The notes beneath the pieces were generated by a model. The model was not told the DNA's origin and made no database searches. It saw only the letters and a list, made by a program, of their open reading frames with translations. From a virus, in IMG/VR virus record IMGVR_UViG_3300045988_020086: a stretch of 50,115 nucleotides of DNA, one strand, 5' to 3'. The position numbers and the translations under genes were made by a program. Below, piece by piece: positions 1 to 50,115 of the stretch; position 1 is the stretch's first letter, and every line of letters begins with the position of its first letter.

Positions 1-141
1 ATTTCCGAACGTCCATCTTGTAAGCCAGTTTACCACAGATCGGGGGTGATAGTCAAGCGGATACCCCAGCGGGGCCGCACCGCTCAAAGCGGCCCCGCCC
101 CACTACCCCGGCAGCCCGCCGGGGCAAACCTGAAAAGCAAA
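1..141. repeat. Direct terminal repeat (assembly overlap of a circular or terminally redundant genome)
   Basis: nt 1-141 are identical to 49975-50115, giving a unit length of 49,974 bp. Confidence 0.95.
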
Positions 142-155
142 AGGAGATTTGAACC
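57..155 (+). repeat. Early-operon intergenic module, copy 0 (continues from 49951 across the junction)
   Basis: Hairpin GGGGCCGC(71-78)/GCGGCCCC(89-96), then hairpin CCCCGGC(106-112)/GCCGGGG(118-124), then AAAAGGAG-N9-ATG. This copy lacks CACGAAA. Confidence 0.8.
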
Positions 156-503
156 ATGAGAATTTCAAAGAAGATCGCAACCGCCGCCGCTGCTCTGGCA
201 CTTGCCGCCGGGCTGCTGGCCCCCACCGCTGCAGCCGCCTGCCCCTACACCGTCGGCCCTTTGGGGCGGTACATCGCCCCGGCCATTGTGAAAGGCATGA
301 CCGCCACCGATGAAAACCAGATTGAAGTCTGGTGCAGTGACGCGCTGGACGGCGACGACTGGTATTTTCTGGTGGATGCCGAAACCGATCTGCGCATCTT
401 CGACCGGGTCCAGCTGGTTGTGAACGCCAACGGCACCCCGGACGATTTCAGCGACGACACCGTGGAAGATGCCTTTTGGAGCTGCTGCTCCATCGACGAT
501 TGA
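156..503 (+). CDS. Small secreted or lipoprotein-like early protein (115 aa)
   Basis: ATG lies 9 nt after AAAAGGAG. N-terminal signal peptide MRISKKIATAAAALALAAGLLAPTAAAAC with a possible lipobox Cys. Confidence 0.7.
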   Translation: MRISKKIATAAAALALAAGLLAPTAAAACPYTVGPLGRYIAPAIVKGMTATDENQIEVWCSDALDGDDWYFLVDAETDLRIFDRVQLVVNANGTPDDFSDDTVEDAFWSCCSIDD

Positions 504-618
504 CCCCCGCCGGACACCTTAGCAGGGCCGCACCGTAAAGCGACCCCGCCCCACTACCCCGGCAGCCGCCGGGAGATCATCCCGAACACCAACCACAACA
601 CGAAAAGGAGCAAGTACC
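504..618 (+). repeat. Early-operon intergenic module, copy 1
   Basis: CGGACAC..AGCAGGGCCGCACCG-AAAGCG.CCCC hairpin, CCCGGCAGCCGCCGGG hairpin, CACGAAA at 599, AAAAGGAG-N8-ATG. Confidence 0.85.
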
Positions 619-1662
619 ATGAAAGGCATGAGCAATAATCAGATCATCCTCAGCGAGGCCGAGAAGCTGGCCCCCGCCACCCTGCACGCCATCGCCACCG
701 CACACCACACCGCCGCCCAGATCGAAGCCCTGGCCGCTCAGATCACCGTGACTGAGGACGACGGCACCCAGCACCCCGGCACCACCCACGACGCGGAGAT
801 CATGTTGGCAGCCAGCGAGCTGCACACCTTCGACTACTGGAAGAAGGAAGGCAAGAGCGTCAAGCTCCACGAAAAGGCACTGATTGAATGCTACTTGTGG
901 AAGTACACCACGAAACCCAGCAAGGCCCAGCGGGAAGCGGCAGAGGCCGAAGGCAAGGAAGCTGCCCCCGATCCGCATTACTACCCGACAAAATCCCACC
1001 TGTTCAGCTGCCTGCAGGTGCAGGACAGCAAGCCCGCCCCCGCTGGCCGGTTCAGCTCCACCGCTGAGATCATCGCCTATAACAAGAAGCTGGCAGCCGA
1101 ACGCAAGGCCGCCGCAAAAGCAGCAGCAGAGCAGGCCGACACAAAAAACGCGCTGGACGTTCTCAAGCAGACGGAATGCAAGGCAAAGGCCGCTTTTCTG
1201 GCCGTGCCTGAAACCGACCGCAAAGCGCAGGCCGAAGCCCTCAGCGCGTGGCGCAAAGCCCGGCAGGATATAGCAGCCGCCGAGAAGCCCGCAGAGCCCA
1301 CCACGAAACCCGCCCCGGAGATCATCCCCGCCGGCGTGACGGACAAGAAGCCGGGCGGCTGGAAGAAGTGCAGCTTTTACGCTATCTGCACCACTCCGCA
1401 GAATCCCACCAACCACGCGGAGAAGCGGGACGGCTACACCGACGGCGTTTTCAACTACTACGCGCTCCACCTTGGCAAAGCCACGATCTGGTACGCCGTT
1501 CACCCTGCCTACGGTGTCAGCATCGGCCCCGGCCAGAACAGCCGGAGCGCAGCCAAAACCGCAGCGTTTGAACTTCTCGAATCCGTCGCAAAGATGGAGA
1601 AAACCCCCAGCGAACGCCTGAAGAACTGCGCCGCAATGGTCGCCGCCGCACAGAATGCGTGA
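619..1662 (+). CDS. Early protein of unknown function (347 aa)
   Basis: Strong RBS, long ORF, Ala/Lys-rich linker. The segment TFDYWKKEGKSVKLHEKA weakly recalls ArdC-N/DUF1738-type ssDNA-binding domains (unverified). Confidence 0.75.
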   Translation: MKGMSNNQIILSEAEKLAPATLHAIATAHHTAAQIEALAAQITVTEDDGTQHPGTTHDAEIMLAASELHTFDYWKKEGKSVKLHEKALIECYLWKYTTKPSKAQREAAEAEGKEAAPDPHYYPTKSHLFSCLQVQDSKPAPAGRFSSTAEIIAYNKKLAAERKAAAKAAAEQADTKNALDVLKQTECKAKAAFLAVPETDRKAQAEALSAWRKARQDIAAAEKPAEPTTKPAPEIIPAGVTDKKPGGWKKCSFYAICTTPQNPTNHAEKRDGYTDGVFNYYALHLGKATIWYAVHPAYGVSIGPGQNSRSAAKTAAFELLESVAKMEKTPSERLKNCAAMVAAAQNA

Positions 1663-1773
1663 ACACAACCCCGGACATCCCAGCAGGGCCGCACCGCCCA
1701 AAGCGGCCCCACCCCACTTCCCACCGGCAGCCCGCCGGGGGCATATCACGAAACATGAAAAGGAGTAAATACC
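1663..1773 (+). repeat. Early-operon intergenic module, copy 2
   Basis: Same two hairpins as copy 1, CACGAAA at 1747, AAAAGGAG-N8-ATG. Confidence 0.85.
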
Positions 1774-1956
1774 ATGAAAAAGTTTAACAACATCTTCGAG
1801 CAGATCAACGTGGAACTCCCCGCACTGTGGAAGATCCAGACCCTGCGCACCGAAATTCGGCTCAGCCCCTGCAAGGCCGCGGAACTTCAACCGCAGATCG
1901 ACGCGGCCCGGCTTACCGTCATCTGTGCCCGCCGCGGCTACCTGTACACCGCCTGA
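1774..1956 (+). CDS. Small early protein (60 aa)
   Basis: RBS AAAAGGAG-N8-ATG; flanked by modules on both sides. Confidence 0.6.
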   Translation: MKKFNNIFEQINVELPALWKIQTLRTEIRLSPCKAAELQPQIDAARLTVICARRGYLYTA

Positions 1957-2064
1957 CCCACCGCCGGACACTCTAGCAGGGTTGCACCGCCCAAAGCAGC
2001 CCCGCCCCATCGCCCCGGCAGCCCGCCGGGGAGCATACCACGAAACGAAAAGGAGATGCACACC
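1957..2064 (+). repeat. Early-operon intergenic module, copy 3
   Basis: Hairpin 1 is GGGTTGC(1979-1985)/GCAGCCC(1996-2002), i.e. changes on both arms that keep pairing. CACGAAA at 2039. Confidence 0.85.
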
Positions 2065-2637
2065 ATGACAGCATATCAACAGACCCACCAGCGCACCGCA
2101 TGGCTCCACTACGAGGGCAGCGACTACAACGGGCGGCAGATCGTCGTGGACGTGGCCGAGATCACCCCGGGCCGCTTCACCGTCGCCGCACTGGATGCCG
2201 AAGGGAACGAGATCGAGAGCGACGAGGTGGAAGACCTGGACACCGCCCGCCGCCTGTATGGGGAACTGTTCCGCCGCCTCACCGAGAAGCCCGCCACGAA
2301 ACCGCTTTCCGGCAAATACGCCAAGCTGCGGGATGACCTGCGGGCCGCGCTGGAAGCCGGACGCAACGCCGAACACGAAAACCCGGAAGACGGCGGCACC
2401 TGTAACTTTGATTCCGTCGCCCTCAGTCTTCCCCGCTGGCAGGCGGCAAAGGTGGAGCAGGCCGCCAAGGAAGCGGGCACGAGCTGCTTTTCTTGGGACC
2501 TGTTCGGGGGCCGTCGGTGGGTCTTCGGGCCGGACACCAGAGCGCAGGGCAACGCCCGCACACGAAACGCCGAAGCAATGACCCGGGCACTTGCCGGGAT
2601 GGGCTATCAGGCCATGGACTATTGCCAGATGGATTAA
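2065..2637 (+). CDS. Early protein of unknown function (190 aa)
   Basis: The start was moved to the second ATG (MTAYQQ), 9 nt after AAAAGGAG, because the track start at 2056 abuts the RBS. Acidic N-terminal half; C-terminal GTCNFDS..QGNARTRNAEAM segment. Confidence 0.7.
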   Translation: MTAYQQTHQRTAWLHYEGSDYNGRQIVVDVAEITPGRFTVAALDAEGNEIESDEVEDLDTARRLYGELFRRLTEKPATKPLSGKYAKLRDDLRAALEAGRNAEHENPEDGGTCNFDSVALSLPRWQAAKVEQAAKEAGTSCFSWDLFGGRRWVFGPDTRAQGNARTRNAEAMTRALAGMGYQAMDYCQMD

Positions 2638-2739
2638 ACGGACACCTTGACGGGCCGCACCGCAAAGCGACCCGATCCCACCGCCCCGGCAGCCCGCCGG
2701 GAGTATCACGAAATCCAACACGAAAAGGAGATACACGAA
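2638..2739 (+). repeat. Early-operon intergenic module, copy 4
   Basis: Same two hairpins; three CACGAAA copies (2707, 2719, 2734); AAAAGGAG-N9-ATG. Confidence 0.85.
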
Positions 2740-3675
2740 ATGCGTACTTACACCATCAACGAATCTGCCGCCCGCCTCTCTCACGAAATGCGGTCCTTCG
2801 ACGACTACGAGAAGGGCAGCGCAACCGCTGGCTACAATGCCGACGTTGCCGAGGCTGCCGCCATCCTGGAACGGGTCAAAGCCCTGTGCAGCACCGAGGC
2901 CCAGAAGGAACACGCCGAGTTTCTGTTTGACCGCTACGCCAAGACGCTGGCCGAAGCCATCAACCGAGACAACGAGATCGGCACCCGCTGCCCCAGCGTG
3001 ATGATCTGCGGGGCTGGCAACTTCCCGACCCGGAAGAAGGAGAAGCAGGTCAAAGCATGGGAAGCCAATCACGAAACCTTCCGCAAGGCGGAACACTATC
3101 TTGATCTGCTCAAGACCGCCCACACCCTCACCGTCAAGAGCAATGACCCCGAGGTGCTGGACTATCTCCGGGAGAAGCTGGCCGGGCTGGAAGCCGGGCA
3201 CGAAATGATGGTTTCCGCCAATGCCTATTACCGCAAAAACAAAACGCTGGACGGTTTCGATGGCATCCCCGCCGACACTATGGCATGGATCACGAAACCG
3301 AAGGTCTACCCCGCAGGCGGGCGGAACGGCGACGGGTCCCCGCTGCAGTTCCACGGCAAGCCCTTCCCGACCTACGCCCTCAGCAACAGCAACGCCAACA
3401 TCAAGCGGGTAAAGGAGCGGATCACGAAATTGGAAGCCGCCAAAGCCGCCGCCCCGGTGGAAGAAGAGCGCAGCGGCTACACCTACCGGGAAGACACCGA
3501 AGCCATGCGGGTGCAGCTGATCTTCGACGGCAAGCCCGATGACGAGACCCGCGAACTGTTGAAACGGAACGGTTTCCGCTGGTCTCCCCGCAACAGCGCA
3601 TGGCAGCGGCAGCTCACCGCAAACGGAAAGTATGCCGCACATCAGGTGATGGACGTTCTCGACGGCAACGTATAA
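2740..3675 (+). CDS. Early protein with a C-terminal GFRWSP module (311 aa)
   Basis: ATG lies after the RBS (the track start at 2647 is a TTG inside the module). The C-terminal segment LKRNGFRWSPRNSAWQRQL resembles the GF(R/K)W(S/A)P module of DUF3560-type proteins from mobile elements (recollection, unverified). Confidence 0.7.
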   Translation: MRTYTINESAARLSHEMRSFDDYEKGSATAGYNADVAEAAAILERVKALCSTEAQKEHAEFLFDRYAKTLAEAINRDNEIGTRCPSVMICGAGNFPTRKKEKQVKAWEANHETFRKAEHYLDLLKTAHTLTVKSNDPEVLDYLREKLAGLEAGHEMMVSANAYYRKNKTLDGFDGIPADTMAWITKPKVYPAGGRNGDGSPLQFHGKPFPTYALSNSNANIKRVKERITKLEAAKAAAPVEEERSGYTYREDTEAMRVQLIFDGKPDDETRELLKRNGFRWSPRNSAWQRQLTANGKYAAHQVMDVLDGNV

Positions 3676-3794
3676 CACGAAATCGGACACTCTGGCAGGG
3701 CAAGCACCGTAAAGCAGCCCCGCCCCACTACCCCGGCAGCCGCCGGGAGATCATCCCGAACACCAACCATAACACGAAAAGGAGCTGTCACGAA
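3676..3794 (+). repeat. Early-operon intergenic module, copy 5
   Basis: Near-identical to copy 1 over its 3' half; CACGAAA at 3676, 3773 and 3789. Confidence 0.85.
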
Positions 3795-4064
3795 ATGAAA
3801 CTGAAAGAGACCCGCATTCTGGACGCTGAGGGCGCACGTTACGCCTGCATTGCCAATAACTACTGCACCCGGTGCGATTGTGAAGAATACGACCGCATCT
3901 TGAACGATGCAGCCGAGAGCAGCCGCAAGCCGGGCGGCATCACGGCGGACGATCTGGCCCGCATCGCCGAGGCCATCAAAGCCCGCAGCGAAACGGACGA
4001 CGATGTGCCCGCCATCGCCTTTGCGCTGTCCCGCCGCACCGTCTCCCACTTCACCGAAGCCTGA
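3795..4064 (+). CDS. Small early protein (89 aa)
   Basis: AAAAGGAG-N10-ATG; internal start of track ORF 3600..4064. Confidence 0.65.
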   Translation: MKLKETRILDAEGARYACIANNYCTRCDCEEYDRILNDAAESSRKPGGITADDLARIAEAIKARSETDDDVPAIAFALSRRTVSHFTEA

Positions 4065-4104
4065 GCCGCCGCCCAGCACGAAACACGAAAGGAAGGATTC
4101 GAGT

Positions 4105-4323
4105 ATGAAAACCTATACCCGCCACAGCATTGCAGGATGGGACGTTTACACGGACGATGAAACCGGGCGCGTCCACCATCTCGTTGACCCGGATTCCAAC
4201 GACCCGCGCACCCTGTATCCCTACATTCCCGCCGCCGGGGGTGGATGGGATAACGCCTGCGGCAGTCTGACGCTCTCCGCCCTGCGCGGCCGCATGGCAC
4301 GAAACACCATCCGCTTTGCCTGA
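4105..4323 (+). CDS. Small early protein (72 aa)
   Basis: RBS GAAAGGAAGG-N8-ATG; internal start of track ORF 3907..4323. Confidence 0.6.
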   Translation: MKTYTRHSIAGWDVYTDDETGRVHHLVDPDSNDPRTLYPYIPAAGGGWDNACGSLTLSALRGRMARNTIRFA

Positions 4324-4331
4324 TTTCTGCG

Positions 4332-4358
4332 CCCCGGCCACCCGCCGGGGATTTTGTG
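4332..4358 (+). terminator. Intrinsic-terminator-like hairpin inside the early block
   Basis: CCCCGGC-CACCC-GCCGGGG followed by ATTTTGT. Confidence 0.5.
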
Positions 4359-4389
4359 GGATTCCACACGAAATCTTTCTTGCGTTTTA

Positions 4390-4418
4390 TTGCTTTTCTT
4401 TGCGTTTTGCCCTATCAT
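4390..4418 (+). promoter_or_regulatory. Candidate sigma70-type promoter for the distal early genes
   Basis: TTGCTT(4390-4395)-17 nt-TATCAT(4413-4418) in an AT-rich gap after the hairpin. Confidence 0.4.
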
Positions 4419-4464
4419 GGTTGTAACGAAATCCAGTAACAAAAACAGACAAGGAGGTATTCTC

Positions 4465-5349
4465 ATGTATACGATTCCTGCATTTGGCCCTTGGCCTGAA
4501 CAGAACGCCGGACCCGACGAAGAAAAGCGGCTGAACAGTGCCCAGCAGAGCAAGATCAGCCCCACCAGCATTGACCGGGAACACGAAACCGGGGTTTTCT
4601 ACGGCTCCGGCAAGCTGCCCTATCAGACCAGCCTTGCCGCCTGCACCTGCAACGATTTTGTGAAACGGAAAAAGCCCTGCAAGCATATCTATCGCCTTGC
4701 TATGGAGCTTGGGATCATCCCTCTGGACTATAAGACGGGCAGGAGCAGCGGCGAACGGAACGAAGCACAGATCAGCTTTGAGGACAGCATTGCCCTTGTG
4801 GAGCAGCTTTCCGAGGCTGCGCAAAAGCACATCGAAAATATGCTGTACTACACCAGCGATCGGGTAGACGACCGCCAGCGGGCTGTTACCTGCTATGATC
4901 TCGATCTCGCCGATGAACTGCGCACGTCGCCCCTGCTGCACGAAAATCCTTACCCCCTGGCCGAACAGCTTTCTAAGCTCTCGAAACCAGCTTTGGTAAT
5001 GACCTTGGATGCCATCCACCGCGATGACAAGCCCCGCCGCAACGCCGCCAAAGACAAAATTGCGGCATGGATCGCCGAAAACGTGCCCATGCTGGCAAAC
5101 GAGCTGCCGCCATGTGTGTCCTTCTCCTTCGTGGAGGTGTTCGACAAGGCCCAGCGGGACGTTTACAAGTATCTGCGCCGCAAGTATGAGATGGAAACAG
5201 ACTGGTGCACCGGGCTTGAATATCCCGCCGGGGCAGGTCTCCCCAACGAAAACGAACTTGTGTTTTACTTCCCGGAAGATCGTGTGACTGCCGCTCTCAC
5301 GAAATACGGCTGCAATCGCTGCCTGCATGGGTACATCCCCACGAAATAA
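4465..5349 (+). CDS. SWIM-type zinc-finger protein (294 aa)
   Basis: RBS AAGGAGG-N7-ATG. CxC..CxH signature CTCNDFVKRKKPCKHIYRL. Confidence 0.7.
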   Translation: MYTIPAFGPWPEQNAGPDEEKRLNSAQQSKISPTSIDREHETGVFYGSGKLPYQTSLAACTCNDFVKRKKPCKHIYRLAMELGIIPLDYKTGRSSGERNEAQISFEDSIALVEQLSEAAQKHIENMLYYTSDRVDDRQRAVTCYDLDLADELRTSPLLHENPYPLAEQLSKLSKPALVMTLDAIHRDDKPRRNAAKDKIAAWIAENVPMLANELPPCVSFSFVEVFDKAQRDVYKYLRRKYEMETDWCTGLEYPAGAGLPNENELVFYFPEDRVTAALTKYGCNRCLHGYIPTK

Positions 5350-5352
5350 ACT

Positions 5353-5847
5353 GTGCAAAAATGCACATTGGCGGCTAAGAATGCCATTTCCGCATATTTA
5401 ACCCGCTTTTTTGATACAAAACCTACAATTTATGGACTTAACTGCCCAAAAGGAGGTATTTCTACGAACGACGCAGAGTTTTTCGCCCCGTGGCGGCTGG
5501 TTGCCGCCTTTGCAGACGGCTCCCGCCTGACCTTCGACGGATTGACCGAAGAACAGGCCAAGGACGCAATGGAGGCCGCCCAGGAAGAGCACGGCGATAT
5601 TGGCTACTGGAACCGGGTCACGGATCAGAACTACGAGGACGGCAGATACTACAAACTGATTCCCGAGCCGCCCGCCGTGCATATCGTGGACTTCACCGGG
5701 TACGATGGGTCACTTGACGAGAACGGTTTCCCCGTCGGGCTGCCGGACGAGATTGCCCGGTATGCACAGGAGCAGGGAGCCGCCCCGGATGCCCCGCAGA
5801 TCATCCTCAAGCGCAACGCGCCCAACGAAAAGGAGGACAAGCAATGA
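5353..5847 (+). CDS. Hypothetical early protein; start uncertain
   Basis: The track start is GTG inside the palindrome TGTGCAAAAATGCACA. A strong AAAGGAGG at about 5449 has no canonical in-frame start close behind it. Confidence 0.5.
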   Translation: MQKCTLAAKNAISAYLTRFFDTKPTIYGLNCPKGGISTNDAEFFAPWRLVAAFADGSRLTFDGLTEEQAKDAMEAAQEEHGDIGYWNRVTDQNYEDGRYYKLIPEPPAVHIVDFTGYDGSLDENGFPVGLPDEIARYAQEQGAAPDAPQIILKRNAPNEKEDKQ

Positions 5848-6122
5848 GCCACATTCTCCCGGAAGCTCAATCGGTTATTGACCAACTGAAGCACGACTTT
5901 GTAAAAAACTGCACCCCTGCCTTGGAGCAATTCCAGCTGGATCAGAACGTACAGCAGGCGGAAGCTGCCGTGAAGCTAAAATATTGCATGATGCACGGTC
6001 TTTCTCCCGATGAAGTCACCGTGTCCAGTAGCGAAGACGAACACGGTGTCCGCACCTTCACCATCACCGAAACCCCATCCACGCAAATGGTTGACATAAC
6101 CTTTACCGTCCCCACAGAGTAA
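5844..6122 (+). CDS. Small early protein (92 aa)
   Basis: ATGA overlap with the upstream stop; last gene before the terminator. Confidence 0.6.
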   Translation: MSHILPEAQSVIDQLKHDFVKNCTPALEQFQLDQNVQQAEAAVKLKYCMMHGLSPDEVTVSSSEDEHGVRTFTITETPSTQMVDITFTVPTE

Positions 6123-6125
6123 CGA

Positions 6126-6158
6126 AAAGCCCGCCGGGTCCATGACCTGACGGGCTTT
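6126..6158. terminator. Bidirectional terminator between the convergent blocks
   Basis: AAAGCCCG...CGGGCTTT stem with T-rich flanks on both strands. Confidence 0.6.
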
Positions 6159-6165
6159 CTCAATT

Positions 6166-6498
6166 TTATGCTTGTTCTCCCAAGATTATTTTCTGCATTT
6201 CCTTCTCGGTCTTCCAGGTCAGCGGGTATGCAACCTCTGTGCATTCCCACCCATCCGGCGTTCCCTCGTCCTCGTCAAACACGAACTGCAAATAAGCATG
6301 AGGGTTTTCATCGTCTTCATCCGGGATAAGTGCGCTTACGCTGTTAAAGCACGGCACCCCCTTGAAGCTGTACGTCGCAGGGTGTTCCTCGTCAGCCGGG
6401 CGCATCATGCTCTCTGCGATGCTTTGCAGAATCGGCCCACGTTCGAGAACCTGCTTTTTTGTGATCGTACACCTCGGATTGTCACACCATTTGCACAT
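6166..6498 (-). CDS. Hypothetical Cys-rich protein (110 aa)
   Basis: Start re-picked at MCKWC, 7 nt after GGAGGG. Confidence 0.55.
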   Translation of the reverse strand: MCKWCDNPRCTITKKQVLERGPILQSIAESMMRPADEEHPATYSFKGVPCFNSVSALIPDEDDENPHAYLQFVFDEDEGTPDGWECTEVAYPLTWKTEKEMQKIILGEQA

Positions 6499-6669
6499 AA
6501 ATTTGCCCTCCAAAATTTCAGATTTCACAAAACCCGGCAGGCCGCACAGCCCGCCGGGTATTTCTTGCCAACTTTTCCACATTTCCGGGTAGTCATGTTT
6601 GTTTTTCTGCGCCGGGTGGACACAATTTGCGGAAGCTCGTTTGCGTGAGGCTCTGACGGTCGATCTTCC

Positions 6670-7839: not shown

Positions 7840-8366
7840 GATGATTCCTTTCCCGCCTGGTCTGCCAGGCGTTTCCACTCCTTGATTTCAGTTTTCGTAT
7901 CGGTGGTGATGATTTCCCGGAACACATAGCCCCGCGGCTCTGCGATCAGGTCAATAAACAGCCTGCGACGGTAGATGTAATCCCTCTGCGCCCGCCGGGT
8001 GAATTTTGACTTAATTTCCACCACTTCCACCGTTCCGTCGGCATATTCCAGCACATAATCCGCCGTATACCTTGCCGCCGGGAGATGAACAGCGCAGAAA
8101 TCCTTTGCGGGCAGCAAAGGAAAGGCAACGTGCGGCGTTGCCTTGATGATCCTGCCGGACTGGATGCCCGGCAGTACCGTGCCAATGTAAAAATCATACT
8201 CGCCCTTGCTCTCGAAGGTTTTCCCGATCTCCCCGGCAGCCTTGGCCGCTGCTTCCAGCGATACCGCCCCTACCGGGGCTTTCCGTGCGCATCGAGCGGC
8301 TATTTGCTTCTCCGCCTGGGCACGATACCGGGGCGGCAGGTCTTCCAGTTCCAGTCTCGCACTCAC
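7779..8366 (-). CDS. DUF1064-like (putative PD-(D/E)XK nuclease / resolvase-like) protein
   Basis: GTG start 6 nt after AGGAGGAA, with a GTGA overlap on the Rep stop. Motif pattern ESKGEYDFY..YTADYVLEY..VEVVEIKS. Confidence 0.65.
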   Translation of the reverse strand: MSARLELEDLPPRYRAQAEKQIAARCARKAPVGAVSLEAAAKAAGEIGKTFESKGEYDFYIGTVLPGIQSGRIIKATPHVAFPLLPAKDFCAVHLPAARYTADYVLEYADGTVEVVEIKSKFTRRAQRDYIYRRRLFIDLIAEPRGYVFREIITTDTKTEIKEWKRLADQAGKESSWAKAEQGCPRTTDRASRTP

Positions 8367-9202
8367 GGCTGATTCCTCCTGTTCTTGTTCTTCGGTGGTT
8401 CCTTGCGGTATAGGCTCACGATCAGGTGACGGGTAGAGTTGCCCGTGATGGTGACTTCGCACCGATGCAGGGTATACCCCGGATACATCCGTTCCCAGTA
8501 CGCCCGGTCTTCCAGACAGTTTTCACACACGTCCTTGAGCTTCGATCGGCTCATTTTGTTGTCGTTCGGCCTGGGCATTTTTGGCGGCTGCAGGCCGTGG
8601 CTCTGCCGCCAGTGCCGTTTGCAGCGGCGGTTCTTCACGATATACCGGGCAAGGCTCTCCACGCTGTTGTGGTCGAAGTGCAGCGGCTCACACCGGGCCA
8701 TTCCCCGGCCATTCCACGCCTGTTCTACCATTTCCCGGGTCAGCCCCGCCGGGTGCGTCATAATGACATGGTGATGGTGCCGCCCCAAAACTTCACCTGT
8801 TACAGGGTCCACAGTGCAATACTCCGTCACCACGACCCACTTTGGACGCTGGATGCCCTGTTTGTCGCAAAGGCGGTACAGCTTCTTGATTGCATTGGAG
8901 AAATCCCGGTCAGCCCGGGCAAGGTCATTTGGGGCAGGGTGATGATCGTCGTCGTAGGTGTATGTAACCGAGAAATCACCGGGCCGGAAGTTCGTATTTA
9001 CCAGCAGAACCAGGTAGCGGCCAGATTTGCGGAGGTTGTAGGCTTCCTTCGCCAGACTGGTGGCGAGTTCTTTCTTCCGCCGGGTGCTGGCCTTATGCTC
9101 TTTCTCGGAGACCTCGAAAAACTCCGCCTGCATGGTTGGCGCAGTGGCATAATCTTTGCCGCAGATGTATTTCTGTTCTCTGACATAAAAGCCGCTGCCC
9201 AT
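8363..9202 (-). CDS. HUH-superfamily rolling-circle replication initiator (Rep_1/pC194-like motif set)
   Basis: ATG lies 10 nt after GGAAGGAGGA. Motif 1 FSVTYTY, motif 2 GRHHHHVIM, motif 3 LARYIVKN (YxxK). Confidence 0.7.
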   Translation of the reverse strand: MGSGFYVREQKYICGKDYATAPTMQAEFFEVSEKEHKASTRRKKELATSLAKEAYNLRKSGRYLVLLVNTNFRPGDFSVTYTYDDDHHPAPNDLARADRDFSNAIKKLYRLCDKQGIQRPKWVVVTEYCTVDPVTGEVLGRHHHHVIMTHPAGLTREMVEQAWNGRGMARCEPLHFDHNSVESLARYIVKNRRCKRHWRQSHGLQPPKMPRPNDNKMSRSKLKDVCENCLEDRAYWERMYPGYTLHRCEVTITGNSTRHLIVSLYRKEPPKNKNRRNQP

Positions 9203-9339
9203 ACCCACTACGTCCTCCTTCCCGTAAACGTCCAATTTGCTGAATAAAGGCCAAGCCGCCAGCCGCCCGGGAACTTTTATGCTTGCCCCCGCCCCCGCTC
9301 CGGCAAGCTCTGCTGTCCGTTACGCCCTACTACCGCGGG

Positions 9340-10899: not shown

Positions 10900-11295
10900 T
10901 TACCCCCACAGCTTGACAGCCGGTGCGCCATAGCCATCGCGTACCATAATGCCGTCTTTTTCCGTAAGAAACATCGTTGTCTTAAACGGGAAGTTTGCGG
11001 TACTGATTCCCGCTTCATTGGCAGCATCGGCCAGCATCCCGCGCGGACCATAATCGCTCATAATGGAGAAGTGGCTAAACCTCCCACTTTCTGCGTATTC
11101 CGCCATGCGTTTTGCCAAGGTTTTTTTGAACGTATCCGCCTGATTTGGCGTTATGTTCTGCCGCCCAATGTCAGCAAGGAGACACGCAGTAACGGAAGTG
11201 AAGCTGTTATCTCCATTGCTGTGTGGCCGATCTTCGAGTATTCTTTCCGCCCACCAGTCGGCGGCTTTCTCGATTGCCTCTTTTGCTAAAATCAT
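10900..11295 (-). CDS. Hypothetical protein (131 aa)
   Basis: ORF in the co-oriented train; 4-nt overlap with its upstream neighbour. Confidence 0.55.
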   Translation of the reverse strand: MILAKEAIEKAADWWAERILEDRPHSNGDNSFTSVTACLLADIGRQNITPNQADTFKKTLAKRMAEYAESGRFSHFSIMSDYGPRGMLADAANEAGISTANFPFKTTMFLTEKDGIMVRDGYGAPAVKLWG

Positions 11296-14474: not shown

Positions 14475-16398
14475 CCTCCGATTTTTGGAACACAACAGGC
14501 AGGTGCCCATGTGTTTGTGCGCGGAGTGTTCCTGTTACATTCACAGAAACGTCCATATTCTTCCCGCCTTGGTCGTTCAGCACCAGCGATTCCATCAGCC
14601 TTTGATCCTGTACGACGGCGGTTTTATTTCCGCCTGCCCCAGTCATCAGGGTCGGGCTGCATTCTTCTGAATAGCCGATTCCGCCAGAATTTCCAAGGTC
14701 AAACCCGGCAGCACGTTGGATCAGGCTTTGGTCTTGGCGTGTCGCCAGCGTCGCGGAAAGTTCCGTCTGCACCAGCGGACCTTTGCCGCCGCCCTCACAG
14801 CCTTGCCGGATTTTCAGGGTGTAGGCTCGTTCTGCCCCCCCCCCCTCGGAGCTTTCCTGCTTCCACCATGCGATCATGCCATGAATAGCAGTCAGGAGCA
14901 AGGCAGGCAACGGTCTGCCCCCCCTCCTGGAGGCGCGGTCTAAAATGCCATTCAGTGCCGTCATGCTCAAAAGCGACCATCGTGGCGGATTCTCCACGAG
15001 TATCGCAGACAGCATATATTCTTCGGCGACGGTGGGGGATTCCCCAATATTGAGCGTTGACAATTCGATAGGCAACAGCTCCGTAGGACACAGCCTTTGC
15101 CCATTTTCCATGCTGGCAAATAGGCTTATCTGTTCCACCTCCGGCAAAATCTCGGAGGTGCAAAAGCTCGTTGAGAACAATTTCAAAATCCTTTCCGCCA
15201 TGCGACGACAGCGCACCCGGCACATTTTCCCAAATGACAAAGCGCGGATACCTTCCGCCTGTAGCAGACAGCATTTCCCGGATGACCCGGATTGCTTCAT
15301 AGAACAGGCAGCTTCGGTCGCCGCCCAGTCCTTTGCGCTTTCCCGCAATGCTCAGGTCTTGGCAAGGAGAGCCGAAAGTGATGATGTCCACCGGCTCGAT
15401 CTGACCGCCTTTGATGTCCGTTATGCTGCCGAGGTGTTGCATCTCCGGCAGGTGTGTTTTGGTAACGGCAATAGGGTAAGGCTCCACTTCGCTTGCCCAT
15501 ACAGCCCGCCCGCCGCACATCACAGCACACAGTGGCATGGTCCCGCTTCCATCGAACAGGCTACCCAGCTTTACCTCCGCCGCAGGCTTCCCCAATTCCC
15601 GGAAAGCATTTTGGACGAAGAACAGGGCATTCGGCAAGGCCATTCCGTTGCCCCACATGGAATACTCCGCCGACGGACTGTGCAGCTCGTCGTGCCATCT
15701 CTTCACTGCGGCATCGCTTCTGGCTCCATCCGCCCGGGCAATAATCTTCTTCGGTTTCTGCCCTTTGATCTTGCAATTTCTCAGGTACACTTCCCGCCAG
15801 AACTTGGTTTCTTCTGCGTCCGTCAGCGGTGCGATTTCTCCCCAGCCATCTGGAAAACCCTGTAGCCGCCCGCATTCCATCGGCAACAGGCGGCGCACGA
15901 TCCATTCCGGCAGGCGCGGCACATCCGGCTGAATGACCGGGTTGATGTAATTCAAACTCCATCCCCCTGATTCTTTCGCTTGGAGCGTTCCGCTCACTGT
16001 ACCGTTCAGGCGGCTGTTTCTGGCATCGTAGGCCACCGCATGACGATCTTGTGTGTTCAGCGTGAACGAAGCATTCTCTCGGACACCACTTCCATTTTGG
16101 TTTGTGTTTCGGTCAACGAAGTTCCCAGCAAGGCAGAACGAGTTGTAGCCTACAATGGTTCTGTCCCTGTCCCGGCTCAGTGTCGGTGCGGTGTTCATCA
16201 GGCGTTCGGCGTTGGTCTGGGTGGATGCAATGCAGCACACGTCTTTCTCACCGTTCACGCCGCTGCCCCCCCCCCTCGAACCAGAATGGCCTGCGACCGC
16301 ATGGTGCTGGCGGTGTGCATCAGCGAAGGAGCTACGCCGTCCGCATCGTATACCCGTTTTCCCTGCGGGAAGTCCTGGGTCAAGCATTTAATCTCCAT
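14455..16398 (-). CDS. C5-cytosine DNA methyltransferase with permuted motif order, interrupted at two G tracts as assembled
   Basis: ATG at 16398 after AGAGGA. Motifs in this order: ECGRLQGFPDGW (IX), GNGMALP (X), LFDGSG (I), GSPCQDLS (IV), ENV (VI), QYWGIPHRRRRIY (VIII), then TL-type target-recognition segments. Total span is 1944 nt (a multiple of 3). Confidence 0.8.
14835..14845 (-). repeat. Homopolymer G11 in the C5-MTase (core / C-terminal module junction)
   Basis: Read directly from the sequence; G10 would join ..KLRGGG to AERAYTLKIRQ.. Confidence 0.95.
16266..16275 (-). repeat. Homopolymer G10 in the C5-MTase (after codon 44)
   Basis: Read directly from the sequence; G11 would join ..ILVRGGG to GSGVNGEKD.. 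Confidence 0.95.
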
Positions 16399-20019: not shown

Positions 20020-21310
20020 TGATTTTTTGTGTATTTTAGCGCAACACAAACAGGCCGTCAAGTTTTGCTTCCTTGCAGCCTCTTTCATTCGTTCAGTTTT
20101 ACCAATCCTTTCTTCCCACCCCGCCTTTCCAGCTATGCGCTCGCTCTCTTATATAATGGTTACTTTACTTTTCGTTATGCGGTCAGCCCCAGTTCCCGCA
20201 GGCATTGGCGGAACATGGTCGCCGCACTCTTATACCCGTGAATCTTCCGGGGGTAGTTGTTGATCCAGTTCTCCGTAGCTGCGATTTCTTCCTGGGTCAC
20301 ATTGGCAAAGTTCGTTCCTTTGGGATGACGTCTGCGAATCATGCCATTCACATTCTCATTGCTGCCCCGCTCCCAAGAGGAATACGGGTGGCAGTAGTAC
20401 ACCTTCGTCCGCTGGCCGTCGATCAGGCAGGAACGCTCGATCTCGTCCGCCATTGCGAACTCGGTTCCGTTGTCCACAGTGATGCTCTTATATATAGTGC
20501 CGAACTTCTCTGCGCCAAGCTTCCGTTCTATGGCATCCAGTGCCCGCACGGTCGTTTCCGCACGGCGGTTCGGAACAAGGATGATCTTCTCATTCCTGGT
20601 CTTGCGCTCGGTCAGTACCAGCAATGCCGCGGTGCTTTTCTTTTTGCCGGAGTATACCGTGTCCATTTCCCAGTGTCCAAATTCTTCCCGGCTCTGGATT
20701 TCTTCCGGGCGTTTATCAATGCTTTCTCCTGCCGGCGCACGGGCAGGTTCCTTCTTCTTCACCTTTTTATATTCGTTCTTATGTACGCCATGCCTGGGCA
20801 AAGCTACCTGTGTCAGGTTCAGAAACACGCCTTTCTTGATGTAGCTGTAAATGGTAGGAACGGAGATGTGGGTCTTGAATGTCCGTCCTTCTTCCATTGC
20901 ATAGCCATACACTGCCGCCGGGGAGCAGTCTTTCTCTATAATAGTCTGTTCGATATAAGCTGCCAACTCATGGTCCTTTCCGATTTTAAGGTCCGGTCCT
21001 TTTTCTCGGAGGTTTGCTTGATACCTCTGTTCCGCTATATCTGGGCTGTACGTCGGGATTATCTCCCATGTTTTGCCGTCCAGCCTGTCATAGCTGCCCC
21101 GTTTTAGTTCCCGGTATACCGTCGAAGGATCAACACGCAACTTTTCCGCTATCTCTCGTGTCCTCATTCCTTCCTTTTTCCACTTCTCAATGCGAAGACG
21201 GTCCGTAAAGTTTAGGTGTTTGAACACTCTCACGCCCTGTTCCTCCTTTCAATTCTGGCGTTTCTTTGCATTTCAAGCGTAAAAGATACGATGTGCTGTT
21301 GTCAATATGC
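20020..21310 (-). mobile_element. IS30-family insertion sequence (ends approximate)
   Basis: Single transposase ORF in a lower-GC segment lying between two terminators. Terminal inverted repeats are only tentatively seen (near 20028-20045 and 21285-21300). Confidence 0.6.
20175..21233 (-). CDS. IS30-family transposase
   Basis: N-terminal HTH (REIAEKLRVDPSTVYRELKRG) plus DDE core (WEMDTV...VDNGTEF...NENVNGMIRR). Confidence 0.9.
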   Translation of the reverse strand: MRVFKHLNFTDRLRIEKWKKEGMRTREIAEKLRVDPSTVYRELKRGSYDRLDGKTWEIIPTYSPDIAEQRYQANLREKGPDLKIGKDHELAAYIEQTIIEKDCSPAAVYGYAMEEGRTFKTHISVPTIYSYIKKGVFLNLTQVALPRHGVHKNEYKKVKKKEPARAPAGESIDKRPEEIQSREEFGHWEMDTVYSGKKKSTAALLVLTERKTRNEKIILVPNRRAETTVRALDAIERKLGAEKFGTIYKSITVDNGTEFAMADEIERSCLIDGQRTKVYYCHPYSSWERGSNENVNGMIRRRHPKGTNFANVTQEEIAATENWINNYPRKIHGYKSAATMFRQCLRELGLTA

Positions 21311-21406: not shown

Positions 21407-21481
21407 AGATTGCCCCGCTTTTCCTACATCAATACCCCGCGTGGAACGCAGGGCTTCAGGAAAAGCAGAGCCGTGGTCTTA

Positions 21482-22887: not shown

Positions 22888-23241
22888 TTACATATCCTCC
22901 AGGTCAATATCGCTGTTCATGGCGAGGTAATCAAGCTGTGCCCGTACCCGCATTTTGAACAGTTCATCTTCGGACAGTTCCCGCAGGATGAACCACCACT
23001 TGCCATCCGGGTTATCCTCGGGCGGGGTAATCTGCACAAGCTCCGCGTTGTGCAGGGTGTCCGAGTAGGCGCACCCGGTCATATCGCCGTCACTGGCAGA
23101 AATATGCACCTCCGATAAATTGCCGTCGAAAATATCCGCCGTGATCTCAGTCTCCGACTGGAAGTTATTGCCGCCCAGCGTCAGGTTTTCAATCAGTGTG
23201 CCATCAGCCAGCGCAACCGTCCATGTCCGTGTTTCTTCCAT
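22888..23241 (-). CDS. Hypothetical tail-fiber-associated protein (117 aa)
   Basis: GGAAGGAG RBS. Sits in the position equivalent to XkdW, ahead of XkdX. Confidence 0.55.
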   Translation of the reverse strand: MEETRTWTVALADGTLIENLTLGGNNFQSETEITADIFDGNLSEVHISASDGDMTGCAYSDTLHNAELVQITPPEDNPDGKWWFILRELSEDELFKMRVRAQLDYLAMNSDIDLEDM

Positions 23242-49680: not shown

Positions 49681-49776
49681 GCATTCCGCCATGCAAAAAT
49701 CAACAAGCATTCCGTCATGTTTTTGTGCAAAACGTAGAAAGCATTCCGTCATGCTTGACAGTGGCATTCCGTCATG
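49681..49776 (+). promoter_or_regulatory. Four direct operator-like repeats GCATTCCG(C/T)CATG
   Basis: Copies at 49681, 49707, 49741 and 49764. The last two bracket the -35 and fill the spacer of the early promoter. Confidence 0.75.
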
Positions 49777-49783
49777 CTAAGAT
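49755..49783 (+). promoter_or_regulatory. Early promoter
   Basis: TTGACA(49755-49760)-17 nt-TAAGAT(49778-49783). Confidence 0.7.
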
Positions 49784-49851: not shown

Positions 49852-49950
49852 ATGAGCAAAGAGTTTTTCCAGCTCCCCGAATCCGTCAAGCGGCGGATTT
49901 GGGCGGAACTGCTCGAACAGTGGGCAAAAAGAAAGCCCGCCACCCACTGA
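49852..49950 (+). CDS. First small early ORF (32 aa), absent from the ORF track
   Basis: AAAGGAG-N8-ATG; MSKEFFQLPESVKRRIWAELLEQWAKRKPATH. Confidence 0.45.
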   Translation: MSKEFFQLPESVKRRIWAELLEQWAKRKPATH

Positions 49951-49974: not shown

Positions 49975-50115
49975 ATTTCCGAACGTCCATCTTGTAAGCC
50001 AGTTTACCACAGATCGGGGGTGATAGTCAAGCGGATACCCCAGCGGGGCCGCACCGCTCAAAGCGGCCCCGCCCCACTACCCCGGCAGCCCGCCGGGGCA
50101 AACCTGAAAAGCAAA
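49975..50115. repeat. Direct terminal repeat (second copy)
   Basis: Identical to nt 1-141. Confidence 0.95.

What the first reader, a model, noticed from the sequence alone, without database searches (positions are those of the whole stretch)
57..3794. Six copies of a conserved ~95-nt two-hairpin module punctuate the early operon
Every gap between the first six early genes (57-155, 504-618, 1663-1773, 1957-2064, 2638-2739, 3676-3794) carries the same module, in this order:
- CGGACAC..AGCAGGG
- hairpin 1 (GGGCCGC-ACCGnnAAA-GCGGCCC)
- CCCCAC
- hairpin 2 (CCCCGGC-AGCCC-GCCGGGG)
- a spacer with CACGAAA
- AAAAGGAG-N8-10-ATG

Copy 3 has GGGTTGC/GCAGCCC in hairpin 1. Changes on both arms keep the pairing (C-G to U-A and U-G), which argues for selection on structure. 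No U-tract follows the hairpins, so they are not canonical terminators. No -35/-10 is visible, so they are not sigma70 promoters.

Possible roles are RNA processing sites like the RNase III sites between T7 early genes, mRNA stabilisers, put/nut-like antitermination RNAs, or ssDNA hairpins (sso or primosome-like) used during rolling-circle replication.
Basis: partly seen in the sequence, partly recalled or inferred. Interest (0 to 1): 0.8.

Follow-up and report, generated by a model that had tools for sequence, protein, structure and literature searches.

The report
Known RAGATH-5 RNA between phage genes
The six repeated two-hairpin modules are copies of a catalogued structured RNA of unknown function (RAGATH-5). 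They lie between the genes of one operon of a Faecalibacterium phage, in the same slots that self-cleaving ribozymes fill in sister phages, so they most likely cut or insulate the long messenger RNA between genes.

Summary
Six + strand copies sit in the stated gaps; a seventh hit is the contig's 141-bp terminal overlap. The first 53 nt of each copy match Rfam RF02685 (RAGATH-5) at 63-72 bits, against a threshold of 50. This is a rediscovery of a known orphan RNA motif, not a new class.

The window is a 49,974-bp circular or terminally redundant Faecalibacterium phage related to Toutatis and Lelie. All copies lie in one + strand operon with one promoter-like site and one terminator.

New points:
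- Hairpin 2 lies outside the Rfam structure but is kept in 203 of 208 unique copies, with 76 different sequences.
- Two 5'-tail pyrimidines covary with two purines of hairpin 1's 3' arm in parallel register. This is the signature of base triples. A 3-bp loop pairing would make the core an H-type pseudoknot that ends in an invariant CCA.
- In related phages the element alternates with twister-sister and hammerhead ribozymes and replaces them at orthologous gene junctions.
- ACGAAA is enriched about 8-fold on the operon's sense strand.

Best reading: an intercistronic RNA processing or insulation element. It could be an RNase P substrate, but that is untested.

The parts
57..155 (+). Module 1, upstream of g1 (156-503). 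RAGATH-5 core 57-109. Hairpin 1 stem 69-98. CCA 100-102. Hairpin 2 106-124. Then spacer, AAAAGGAG and ATG at 156.
   Evidence: Rfam 69.9 bits; fold; alignment
504..618 (+). Module 2, upstream of g2 (619-1662). Core 510-560. Proposed pseudoknot stem 511-513 with 533-535. Proposed triples C518.G542 and U519.A543. CCA 551-553. Hairpin 2 558-573. CACGAAA at 599.
   Evidence: Rfam 72.0 bits; covariation mapped from alignment A4
1663..1773 (+). Module 3, upstream of g3 (1774-1956). Core 1671-1723. Hairpin 2 1720-1741. CACGAAA at 1747.
   Evidence: Rfam 63.2 bits; fold
1957..2064 (+). Module 4, upstream of g4 (2065-2637). Core 1964-2016 with the GGGTTGC/GCAGCCC variant of hairpin 1. Tail U1972, C1973 against A1998, G1999. 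Hairpin 2 2013-2031.
   Evidence: Rfam 68.7 bits
2638..2739 (+). Module 5, upstream of g5 (2740-3675). Core 2638-2687. Hairpin 2 2683-2704. Three CACGAAA copies (2707, 2719, 2734).
   Evidence: Rfam 67.8 bits
3676..3794 (+). Module 6, upstream of g6 (3795-4064). Core 3683-3734. Hairpin 2 3732-3747. The 3' half is nearly identical to module 2.
   Evidence: Rfam 64.3 bits; alignment
50031..50083 (+). Second reading of module 1, caused by the 141-bp terminal overlap of the contig. It is not a seventh copy.
49755..49783 (+). Promoter-like site TTGACA-17-TAAGAT with TG. It is overlapped by four GCATTCCGYCATG direct repeats (49681-49776). Likely start of the operon that carries the modules.
   Evidence: consensus matches only
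49852..49950 (+). g0, the first gene of the operon. It encodes a conserved 32-aa basic peptide, MSKEFFQLPESVKRRIWAELLEQWAKRKPATH.
4332..4360 (+). The strongest + strand hairpin-plus-U-tract site in 1-6500 (CCCCGGC-CACCC-GCCGGGG then ATTTTGT); a weaker one overlaps it at 4347-4378. Likely end of the module-bearing transcript, after g7 (4105-4323).
599..5346 (+). Cluster of 28 CACGAAA heptamers, all on the + strand. They occur in spacers and inside coding sequence in all three reading frames.

Best explanation
Each module is a sense-strand, cis-acting structured RNA of the RAGATH-5 class, followed in the same unit by a variable stable stem-loop (hairpin 2), an A/C-rich spacer and the Shine-Dalgarno site of the next gene.

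Six modules punctuate one polycistronic transcript of a Faecalibacterium phage: promoter near 49755, then g0, then six module-plus-gene units, then g7, then the terminator near 4332.

The 53-nt core probably folds as a compact H-type pseudoknot:
- 5' CGG pairs with CCG in the loop of hairpin 1.
- The pyrimidine tail lies in the major groove of hairpin 1 and forms two base triples.
- The stem is followed at once by an invariant N-CCA.

The element occupies the slot that self-cleaving twister-sister and hammerhead ribozymes occupy in sister phages, and swaps with them at orthologous junctions. I therefore infer that it does the same job, which is to separate or insulate cistrons at the RNA level. 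That would mean a site-specific break 5' of each cistron, or an exonuclease barrier, leaving a structured 5' end on the downstream message.

The most specific mechanism I can propose is cleavage by host RNase P at the loop-1/stem junction: 68|69, 521|522, 1682|1683, 1975|1976, 2649|2650 and 3694|3695. It would be guided by the pseudoknot plus CCA. I give this sub-mechanism about 0.2.

Shown: family identity, strand, operon context, hairpin 2, the covariations, and slot equivalence. Inferred: the fold as a whole, any cleavage, and RNase P.
For: - Identity: six hits to RF02685 at 63-72 bits against a gathering score of 50, with no other family at E<=1 in 1-4600.
- Conservation: 7 copies each in phages Toutatis and Lelie. 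There are 308 covariance-model hits in 100 sources. A pattern search finds 319 copies in 90 loci, 1-8 per locus, never on both strands, at a median spacing of 905 nt. The element occurs in prophages of Faecalibacterium, Oscillibacter, Gemmiger, Dysosmobacter and Flavonifractor.
- Placement: the upstream stop codon lies a median 7 nt before CGGA (10-90%: 4-11), and the core end lies a median 52 nt before the start codon.
- One transcript: one promoter-like site, one strong + strand terminator-like site after g7, and neither kind of site inside the modules.
- Hairpin 2: present in 203 of 208 unique copies, with 76 distinct sequences and 22 G-U pairs. Mean z = -2.4 against shuffles.
- Triples: A4 columns 15-48 read UA 78, CG 57, UG 2, other 1. 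Columns 14-47 read CG 88, UA 46, UG 2, other 2. Both are in parallel register, and 0 of 500 shuffles reach the observed covariation score. In 42 new cores from bacterial genomes, 41 obey the rule. Cores identical at all other positions carry different consistent haplotypes.
- Pseudoknot pair 7-32: CG 127, UG 2, GC 1, UA 1, plus one further UA and one GC in the independent set.
- CCA is invariant in 74 of 74 unique covariance-model hits, and the next base is variable.
- Slot equivalence: RAGATH-5 is interleaved on the same strand with twister-sister or hammerhead-II in 6 of 15 scanned loci, with the same spacing to stop codon and SD. Five downstream gene families are preceded by RAGATH-5 in one phage and twister-sister in another, including an identical 72-aa protein.
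- Literature: bacterial RNase P cleaves an H-type pseudoknot in loop 1 if a 3' RCCA is present. The T4 gene 32 mRNA pseudoknot is also followed by ACCA (PMC12710915).
Against: - No transcript-end, structure-probing or cleavage data exist for any copy.
- The literature says the RAGATH candidates other than twister-sister, pistol and hatchet did not self-cleave and have unknown function (PMC6765202). That RAGATH-5 is one of those candidates is my own recollection; I could not read the 2015 paper.
- The biological role of the ribozymes in these operons is itself unknown. 'Same job as the ribozymes' therefore does not yet name a job.
- The pseudoknot stem is only 3 bp. Two of its pairs never vary, and 7 copies have a C.A at the third.
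- The two 'triples' rest on four haplotypes in related, possibly recombining repeats.
- Against RNase P: the base before CCA is C rather than a purine. The CCA is internal, not at a 3' end. The leader is engaged with the stem. ARAGORN calls nothing tRNA-like.
- Some junctions (g6-g7) have no element, and a few copies lack hairpin 2.
Confidence: 0.5

Rival explanations
1. RAGATH-5 plus hairpin 2 is itself a self-cleaving ribozyme of a new class. In vitro tests missed the activity because the construct, pH or cofactor was wrong. For example, the motif as modelled stops inside the 5' arm of hairpin 2, and C+ triples depend on pH.
For: It has the same slot, strand and spacing as twister-sister and hammerhead, and exchanges with them at orthologous junctions. 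It shows high sequence conservation in formally unpaired regions and a compact pseudoknot-like fold, as small ribozymes do. The review allows that inactive candidates may need other conditions.
Against: RAGATH candidates other than the three new classes reportedly did not cleave. No match to any ribozyme model other than RF02685 itself. No cleavage-site evidence.
Confidence: 0.12
2. The module is a binding site for a trans-acting protein, either phage-encoded (for example the g0 basic peptide) or host. The protein would regulate translation or elongation of each cistron, as with the T4 gene 32 or RegA operators or N/nut. The ACGAAA repeats would serve as extra, cooperative binding sites along the mRNA.
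For: - The loop and tail sequences are invariant.
- ACGAAA is enriched about 8-fold on the sense strand of RAGATH-5 operons. Its positions turn over between orthologues while its number per gene is kept.
- The hairpin-1 loop CACCG..AAA resembles CACGAAA and sometimes contains it.
- g0-like peptides occur in 62 of 156 RAGATH-5 loci against 4 of 70 twister-sister-only loci.
- T4 gene 32 mRNA also combines a pseudoknot with a repeat-rich unstructured leader (my own knowledge).
Against: A protein operator would not be expected to be replaceable by a self-cleaving ribozyme at the same junction. g0 has no family match, and its association may only reflect shared lineage and truncated loci. ACGAAA is also somewhat enriched in ribozyme-only operons.
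Confidence: 0.15
3. The repeats are mainly recombination linkers, that is, mobile cassette boundaries like the PeSL elements of T4-type phages. They persist because they shuffle small early genes, with no RNA function of their own.
For: Gene content differs on either side of conserved modules. The same upstream gene is followed by different downstream genes. BLAST similarity to Toutatis and Lelie is patchy. Modules 2 and 6 share a near-identical 3' half, which suggests gene conversion.
Against: Compensatory and parallel covariation, G-U pairs, strict sense orientation and fixed spacing to stop codon and SD all point to selection on an RNA fold. Recombination may be a by-product.
Confidence: 0.07
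4. The element works at the DNA level: ssDNA hairpins for replication or priming, promoters for a non-sigma-70 polymerase, or attenuating terminators.
For: The stems are G+C-rich. A Rep ORF2/G2P-like gene lies at 8363-9235. The operon terminator hairpin resembles hairpin 2.
Against: This is a tailed dsDNA phage. There is no U tract and no promoter-like site in the modules. G-U pairs would be A.C mismatches on the other strand. The parallel-register covariation cannot be a DNA hairpin. The element is exchangeable with ribozymes.
Confidence: 0.03

Closest known systems
RAGATH-5 RNA motif (Rfam RF02685; from the 2015 search for RNAs near genes associated with twister and hammerhead ribozymes)
   Same: All six cores match the full 53-position model at 63-72 bits. 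The hairpin, the conserved flanks and the genomic neighbourhood (ribozyme-associated phage genes) are the same.
   Different: Nothing differs in the core. The structure line that cmscan shows for the model has hairpin 1 only. Outside that line are hairpin 2 (its 5' arm is the last four model positions), the tail/arm parallel covariation, the loop pseudoknot and the ACGAAA-rich spacer. I could not read the original paper, so some of this may already have been drawn there.
Twister-sister (RF02681) and type II hammerhead (RF02276) ribozymes in phage operons
   Same: Same strand and same slot: stop codon, about 7 nt, element, A/C-rich spacer, SD. They are interleaved with RAGATH-5 in one operon and swapped at orthologous junctions.
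   Different: No sequence or fold similarity. Self-cleavage of RAGATH-5 is not shown. The ribozyme slots lack hairpin 2.
H-type pseudoknot substrates of RNase P (TYMV tRNA-like structure, biotin-aptamer pseudoknot with 3' RCCA, T4 gene 32 mRNA pseudoknot with ACCA)
   Same: Proposed topology: a 5' strand paired to the hairpin loop, loop 1 crossing the deep groove, and the 3' strand of stem 2 running straight into N-CCA (PMC12710915).
   Different: The CCA is internal and is preceded by C. Loop 1 is 8 nt and seems to form triples. No cleavage data.
RNase III processing sites between T7 early genes
   Same: Intercistronic hairpins in a phage operon with neither terminator nor promoter features.
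   Different: T7 sites are long irregular duplexes. Here the stems are 6-10 bp and the conserved part is largely single-stranded or pseudoknotted.
PeSL mobile regulatory cassettes of T4-type phages (my own knowledge)
   Same: Short repeated cassettes with a stem-loop in front of many small genes, located at mosaic junctions.
   Different: PeSLs carry an early promoter. No promoter-like site is found here, and covariation points to an RNA fold.

Membership tests
RAGATH-5 (RF02685) | Covariance-model score at or above the curated gathering score (50 bits) over the full model | tested here: met
   Six copies score 63.2-72.0 bits over model positions 1-53
RAGATH-5 (RF02685) | Hairpin with the GCACCG..AAAGC loop and conserved CGGAYACC and CCCCAC flanks | tested here: met
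   Alignments. Pairs 18-54 and 26-47 covary
RAGATH-5 (RF02685) | Occurs near genes and elements associated with twister and hammerhead ribozymes | tested here: met
   Twister-sister or hammerhead-II lies in the same operon in 6 of 15 related loci. 37 of 107 new twister-sister loci also carry RAGATH-5
Self-cleaving ribozyme | Site-specific self-scission giving 2',3'-cyclic phosphate and 5'-OH ends | not testable with these tools
   The literature reports no cleavage for the remaining RAGATH candidates (PMC6765202)
Self-cleaving ribozyme | Match to a known ribozyme class model | tested here: not met
   Only RF02685 is found in 1-4600 at E<=1
Intrinsic terminator | G+C-rich hairpin followed by a U tract | tested here: not met
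   No terminator-like site inside any module. On the + strand of 1-6500 the only such sites are at 4332-4350 and an overlapping weaker one at 4347-4378, after g7
Sigma-70 promoter / PeSL-type promoter cassette | -35 and -10 hexamers at 16-18 nt spacing | tested here: not met
   No + strand promoter-like site in 1-6500. One lies upstream at 49755-49783
RNase III site (T7 early type) | Extended duplex of about two helical turns | tested here: not met
   Hairpin 1 has about 10 layers with mismatches. Hairpin 2 has a median of 6 bp
H-type pseudoknot with major-groove triples (structural class) | Loop-to-5'-strand pairing supported by covariation | tested here: inconclusive
   3 bp, of which 2 never vary. 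The third reads CG 127, UG 2, GC 1, UA 1, other 7, plus one UA and one GC in the independent set
H-type pseudoknot with major-groove triples (structural class) | Loop-1 pyrimidines covary with stem-2 purines in parallel register (U with A, C with G) | tested here: met
   Columns 15-48 pair in 99.3% and columns 14-47 in 98.6% of 138 cores, with 57 and 46 double changes and 0 of 500 shuffles reaching the covariation score. 41 of 42 independent cores obey the rule
RNase P substrate (pseudoknot or minihelix plus CCA) | Helical stack followed directly by N-CCA | tested here: met
   CCA is invariant in 74 of 74 hits, preceded by C 70, T 3, G 1, with the next base variable
RNase P substrate (pseudoknot or minihelix plus CCA) | Cleavage by RNase P 5' of the first stem pair | not testable with these tools
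   ARAGORN finds no tRNA or tmRNA-like gene in the window
put/nut antitermination RNA | One or two sites just downstream of early promoters that act on RNA polymerase | not testable with these tools
   Six sites spread over 3.7 kb, each tied to a stop codon and an SD. They are interchangeable with ribozymes, which argues against this role

The most novel reading that the evidence does not exclude
RAGATH-5 is a natural, mRNA-embedded H-type pseudoknot-triplex ending in N-CCA that recruits the host ribozyme RNase P to cut between cistrons. It would be a 'borrowed-ribozyme' equivalent of the self-cleaving ribozymes that replace it in sister phages. That would explain why it failed self-cleavage assays. 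It would also give the first family-wide in vivo case of RNase P targeting mRNA pseudoknots. The strand-specific, positionally fluid ACGAAA signal would be a second, still unexplained layer on the same transcripts.
Probability: 0.2. Interest if true: 0.85.

Novelty: new member of a known kind. Interest (0 to 1): 0.5.

Why it matters
RAGATH-5 and the ribozymes that share its genomic niche are abundant in phages of major human gut Firmicutes (Faecalibacterium and other Oscillospirales). Neither has a known biological role.

This analysis shows that RAGATH-5 swaps with twister-sister at orthologous junctions, is followed by a structurally conserved hairpin, and carries a triplex-type covariation and an invariant CCA. 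Together these turn an orphan motif into a specific hypothesis, cleavage by RNase P or an exonuclease barrier, that can be tested at the bench. Cultured phage-host pairs (Toutatis and Lelie on Faecalibacterium) are available for such tests.

The result would also bear on two open questions: why phage operons are punctuated by ribozymes, and whether RNase P targets mRNA pseudoknots in vivo.

Tried and rejected
- Literature: 'RAGATH-5' has no hit in the searchable library, and the 2015 discovery paper is not held. A search for CACGAAA returned only primer noise.
- MAFFT could not align hairpin 2 across relatives. I therefore analysed it by per-copy folding rather than with a covariance model.
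- Comparing sense and antisense folding energies of the hairpin 2 region did not discriminate the strand. The antisense strand is as stable or more so, so the strand assignment rests on other evidence.
- Single-linkage clustering to count independent co-substitutions collapsed at distance 1 or more. Only the identical-background cases are informative.
- An antiparallel reading of the tail/arm covariation was rejected, because the CT/GA and TC/AG haplotypes fit only a parallel register.
- Pfam finds no domain in g1-g7. PHROGs gives mostly 'unknown function', and g0 has no family. No nuclease or RNA-binding partner could be named.
- ACGAAA as a coding artefact was rejected, because it occurs in all three frames. 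ACGAAA as fixed sites was rejected, because its positions are not conserved between orthologues. ACGAAA is not depleted outside the operon.

Full report
**What is there.** A core pattern gives 7 matches where none is expected from shuffles. The seventh match is copy 1 read twice, because the first 141 bases recur at 49975. The contig is therefore a 49,974-bp circular or terminally redundant genome. There are three minor corrections. The GGGTTGC/GCAGCCC variant is in copy 4, not copy 3. Copies 2 and 6 have a shorter hairpin 2. Copy 1 has no CACGAAA.

**Identity.** A scan of the whole window against Rfam places the first 53 nt of each module in RF02685, RAGATH-5, at 63-72 bits against a gathering score of 50. 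No other family matches 1-4600 even at E<=1. RAGATH motifs come from a search of intergenic regions near genes associated with twister and hammerhead ribozymes. A review states that the candidates other than twister-sister, pistol and hatchet did not cleave and have unknown function. It also states that the reason for the ribozyme-gene association is unknown (PMC6765202). I could not obtain the discovery paper. That RAGATH-5 is one of the non-cleaving candidates is my own recollection.

**Context.** PHROG matches identify terminase, portal, major head, tape measure and tail fibre genes on the - strand. BLAST links the region to Faecalibacterium phages Toutatis and Lelie. The A/T skew flips after about 5 kb. 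The modules lie in a short + strand operon. It starts at a promoter-like TTGACA-17-TAAGAT site at 49755-49783, overlapped by four GCATTCCGYCATG repeats. It continues through g0 (a 32-aa basic peptide, 49852-49950), six module-plus-gene units (g1-g6) and g7 without a module. It ends at the strongest + strand hairpin-plus-U-tract site in 1-6500, at 4332-4360. No promoter-like or terminator-like site lies inside a module. The genes g1-g7 have no Pfam domain and mostly 'unknown function' PHROGs.

**Conservation.** Toutatis and Lelie carry 7 copies each. A pattern scan of viral contigs followed by my own covariance model found 308 hits in 100 sources. A regular expression recovered 319 copies in 90 loci, with 1-8 per locus, never on both strands of a locus, and a median spacing of 905 nt. 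In bacterial genomes the element sits in Faecalibacterium, Oscillibacter, Gemmiger, Dysosmobacter, Flavonifractor and other Oscillospirales contigs. The copies are therefore not recent local duplications.

**Anatomy beyond the Rfam model.**

1. *Hairpin 2.* A stable stem-loop begins 0-5 nt after the conserved CCCA in 203 of 208 unique copies. It has 76 different sequences, for example CCCCGGCAGCCCGCCGGGG, CACCCCGCCGGGGUG, UUCCCGGCAUAAAUGUCGGGAA and GNRA minihairpins such as GCCGAAAGGC, and 22 G-U pairs. Its mean z-score against shuffles is -2.4. So hairpin 2 is conserved in structure and free in sequence. The cmscan structure line shows only hairpin 1.
2. *A parallel covariation.* In an alignment of 138 unique cores (A4), two pyrimidines of the 5' tail track two purines of the 3' arm of hairpin 1. 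Columns 15-48 read UA 78, CG 57, UG 2, other 1. Columns 14-47 read CG 88, UA 46, UG 2, other 2. The register is parallel (i with j, i+1 with j+1). The four haplotypes CT/GA, CC/GG, TC/AG and TT/AA exclude an ordinary antiparallel helix. U with A and C with G, parallel to the purine strand, is the signature of major-groove U.A-U and C+.G-C triples. The rule holds better than the canonical pair 26-47, which has 8 exceptions. No shuffle in 500 reaches the observed covariation score. The rule is met by 41 of 42 new cores taken from bacterial genomes by the covariance model. Cores identical at all other positions carry different consistent haplotypes. All six window copies obey it.
3. *A possible pseudoknot.* The invariant 5' CGG can pair with CCG in the hairpin loop. 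The one variable pair reads CG 127, UG 2, GC 1, UA 1, other 7, with one more UA and one more GC in the independent set. This would make the core an H-type pseudoknot. Its loop 1 (AYACYYYR) would cross the deep groove of stem 2, which is where the triples fall, and its loop 3 would end in AAA. The support for this stem is thin.
4. *The CCA.* The stem is followed directly by N-CCA. CCA is invariant in 74 of 74 unique model hits, the preceding base is C 70, T 3, G 1, and the next base is variable.

**The functional clue.** An Rfam scan of 15 non-redundant related loci shows RAGATH-5 interleaved on the same strand with twister-sister ribozymes (L096, L018, L009, L045, L108) or a type II hammerhead (L094). 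The ribozymes sit in the same slot: stop codon, about 7 nt, element, A/C-rich spacer, SD. After clustering the downstream proteins, five gene families have members preceded by RAGATH-5 in one phage and by twister-sister in another. One family has hammerhead against twister-sister. In the clearest case an identical 72-aa protein and near-identical leader follow RAGATH-5 in L039 and twister-sister in L020. Ribozyme slots lack hairpin 2, so hairpin 2 belongs to the RAGATH-5 unit. This interchangeability argues for a sense-strand RNA whose job self-cleavage can also do. That job would be to separate or insulate cistrons.

**Mechanism.** No data show cleavage. I rank three ways of doing a ribozyme-equivalent job: a host nuclease guided by the fold, an exonuclease barrier, and undetected self-cleavage. 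For the first there is a concrete precedent. Bacterial RNase P cleaves an H-type pseudoknot in loop 1 provided a 3' RCCA follows. The T4 gene 32 mRNA pseudoknot is followed by ACCA. Whether RNase P targets mRNA pseudoknots in vivo is called an open question (PMC12710915). RAGATH-5 has this topology plus an invariant CCA. The predicted cuts are at 68|69, 521|522, 1682|1683, 1975|1976, 2649|2650 and 3694|3695. Against this idea, the discriminator-like base is C, the CCA is internal, the leader is engaged with the stem, and ARAGORN sees nothing tRNA-like. I give the RNase P reading about 0.2.

**A second signal.** CACGAAA occurs 32 times in the window against 7.9 expected. Of these, 28 lie on the + strand within 599-5346. 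It is also the top or near-top strand-specific heptamer in the homologous operons of Toutatis and Lelie. Over 20 non-redundant operons with modules masked, ACGAAA counts 234 sense against 11 antisense in 78.9 kb. Outside the operons it counts 57 and 53 in 148.8 kb. The context is A-N-(C/A)-ACGAAA. It lies in spacers and in coding sequence in all three frames. Its positions are not conserved between orthologues, but its number per gene is. It is weaker in twister-sister-only operons, at 0.8 per kb against 3.0 per kb. I have no tested explanation for it.

**Verdict.** The finding is real but is a rediscovery of a known orphan family. What this analysis adds is hairpin 2, the triplex-type covariation, the CCA and the junction-level exchange with ribozymes. 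Any of these may already appear in supplementary material I could not read.

Noticed in passing
window 599-5346 (+ strand): CACGAAA/ACGAAA is massively enriched on the sense strand of the module-bearing operon: 28 of the window's 32 copies, and 234 sense against 11 antisense across 20 related operons. It occurs in all three reading frames. Its positions turn over between orthologues while its density is kept. The function is unknown. Ideas not tested: protein-binding sites on the mRNA, or a Chi-like DNA signal near a genome end.
   Followed up: partly
window 49852-49950 (+): g0 is a conserved 32-aa basic, Trp-containing peptide (MSKEFFQLPESVKRRIWAELLEQWAKRKPATH). It is usually the first gene of these operons, 81-120 nt before the first RAGATH-5 copy. 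It is found in 62 of 156 RAGATH-5 loci against 4 of 70 twister-sister-only loci, and has no family match. It is a possible RNA-binding partner, or just a lineage marker.
   Followed up: partly
window 49681-49776 (+): Four direct repeats of GCATTCCGYCATG overlap the TTGACA-17-TAAGAT promoter-like site of the operon. They look like operator sites for a repressor. One further copy with a single mismatch lies at 11095.
   Followed up: partly
window 1-141 and 49975-50115: The first 141 bases are repeated exactly at the end of the window. The contig is therefore a circular or terminally redundant 49,974-bp genome, and Rfam counts module 1 twice.
   Followed up: yes
window 21409-21474 (-): A DUF3800-VIII RNA (RF03075, 67.6 bits) lies next to an IS30-like transposase gene (20175-21233, HTH_38 plus rve domains). 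The same RNA family also occurs in related locus L096.
   Followed up: no
window 23193-24443 (-) and 25270-26598 (-): A reverse transcriptase gene (RVT_1; PHROG 'Reverse transcriptase') lies close to a tail fibre gene. This suggests a diversity-generating retroelement. Template and variable repeats were not looked for.
   Followed up: no
window 4332-4360 (+): The hairpin of the operon's terminator (CCCCGGC-CACCC-GCCGGGG) is almost the same as hairpin 2 of the modules, but it is followed by a U tract. Hairpin 2 looks like a terminator stem without its tail.
   Followed up: no
window 504-618 versus 3676-3794: Modules 2 and 6 share a nearly identical 3' half (GGCAGCCGCCGGGAGATCATCCCGAACACCAACCAYAACACGAAAAGGAGC). 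This suggests recent duplication or gene conversion between modules within the genome.
   Followed up: no
window 8363-9235 (-) and 14795-16387 (-): A Rep ORF2/G2P-like replication protein gene and a C-5 cytosine DNA methylase gene lie in the - strand gene block.
   Followed up: no
loci L096 and L094: The same upstream gene end (...YYFRVA, stop codon) is followed by a twister-sister ribozyme in one phage and by a type II hammerhead in another. Ribozyme classes therefore also swap with each other at one junction.
   Followed up: partly
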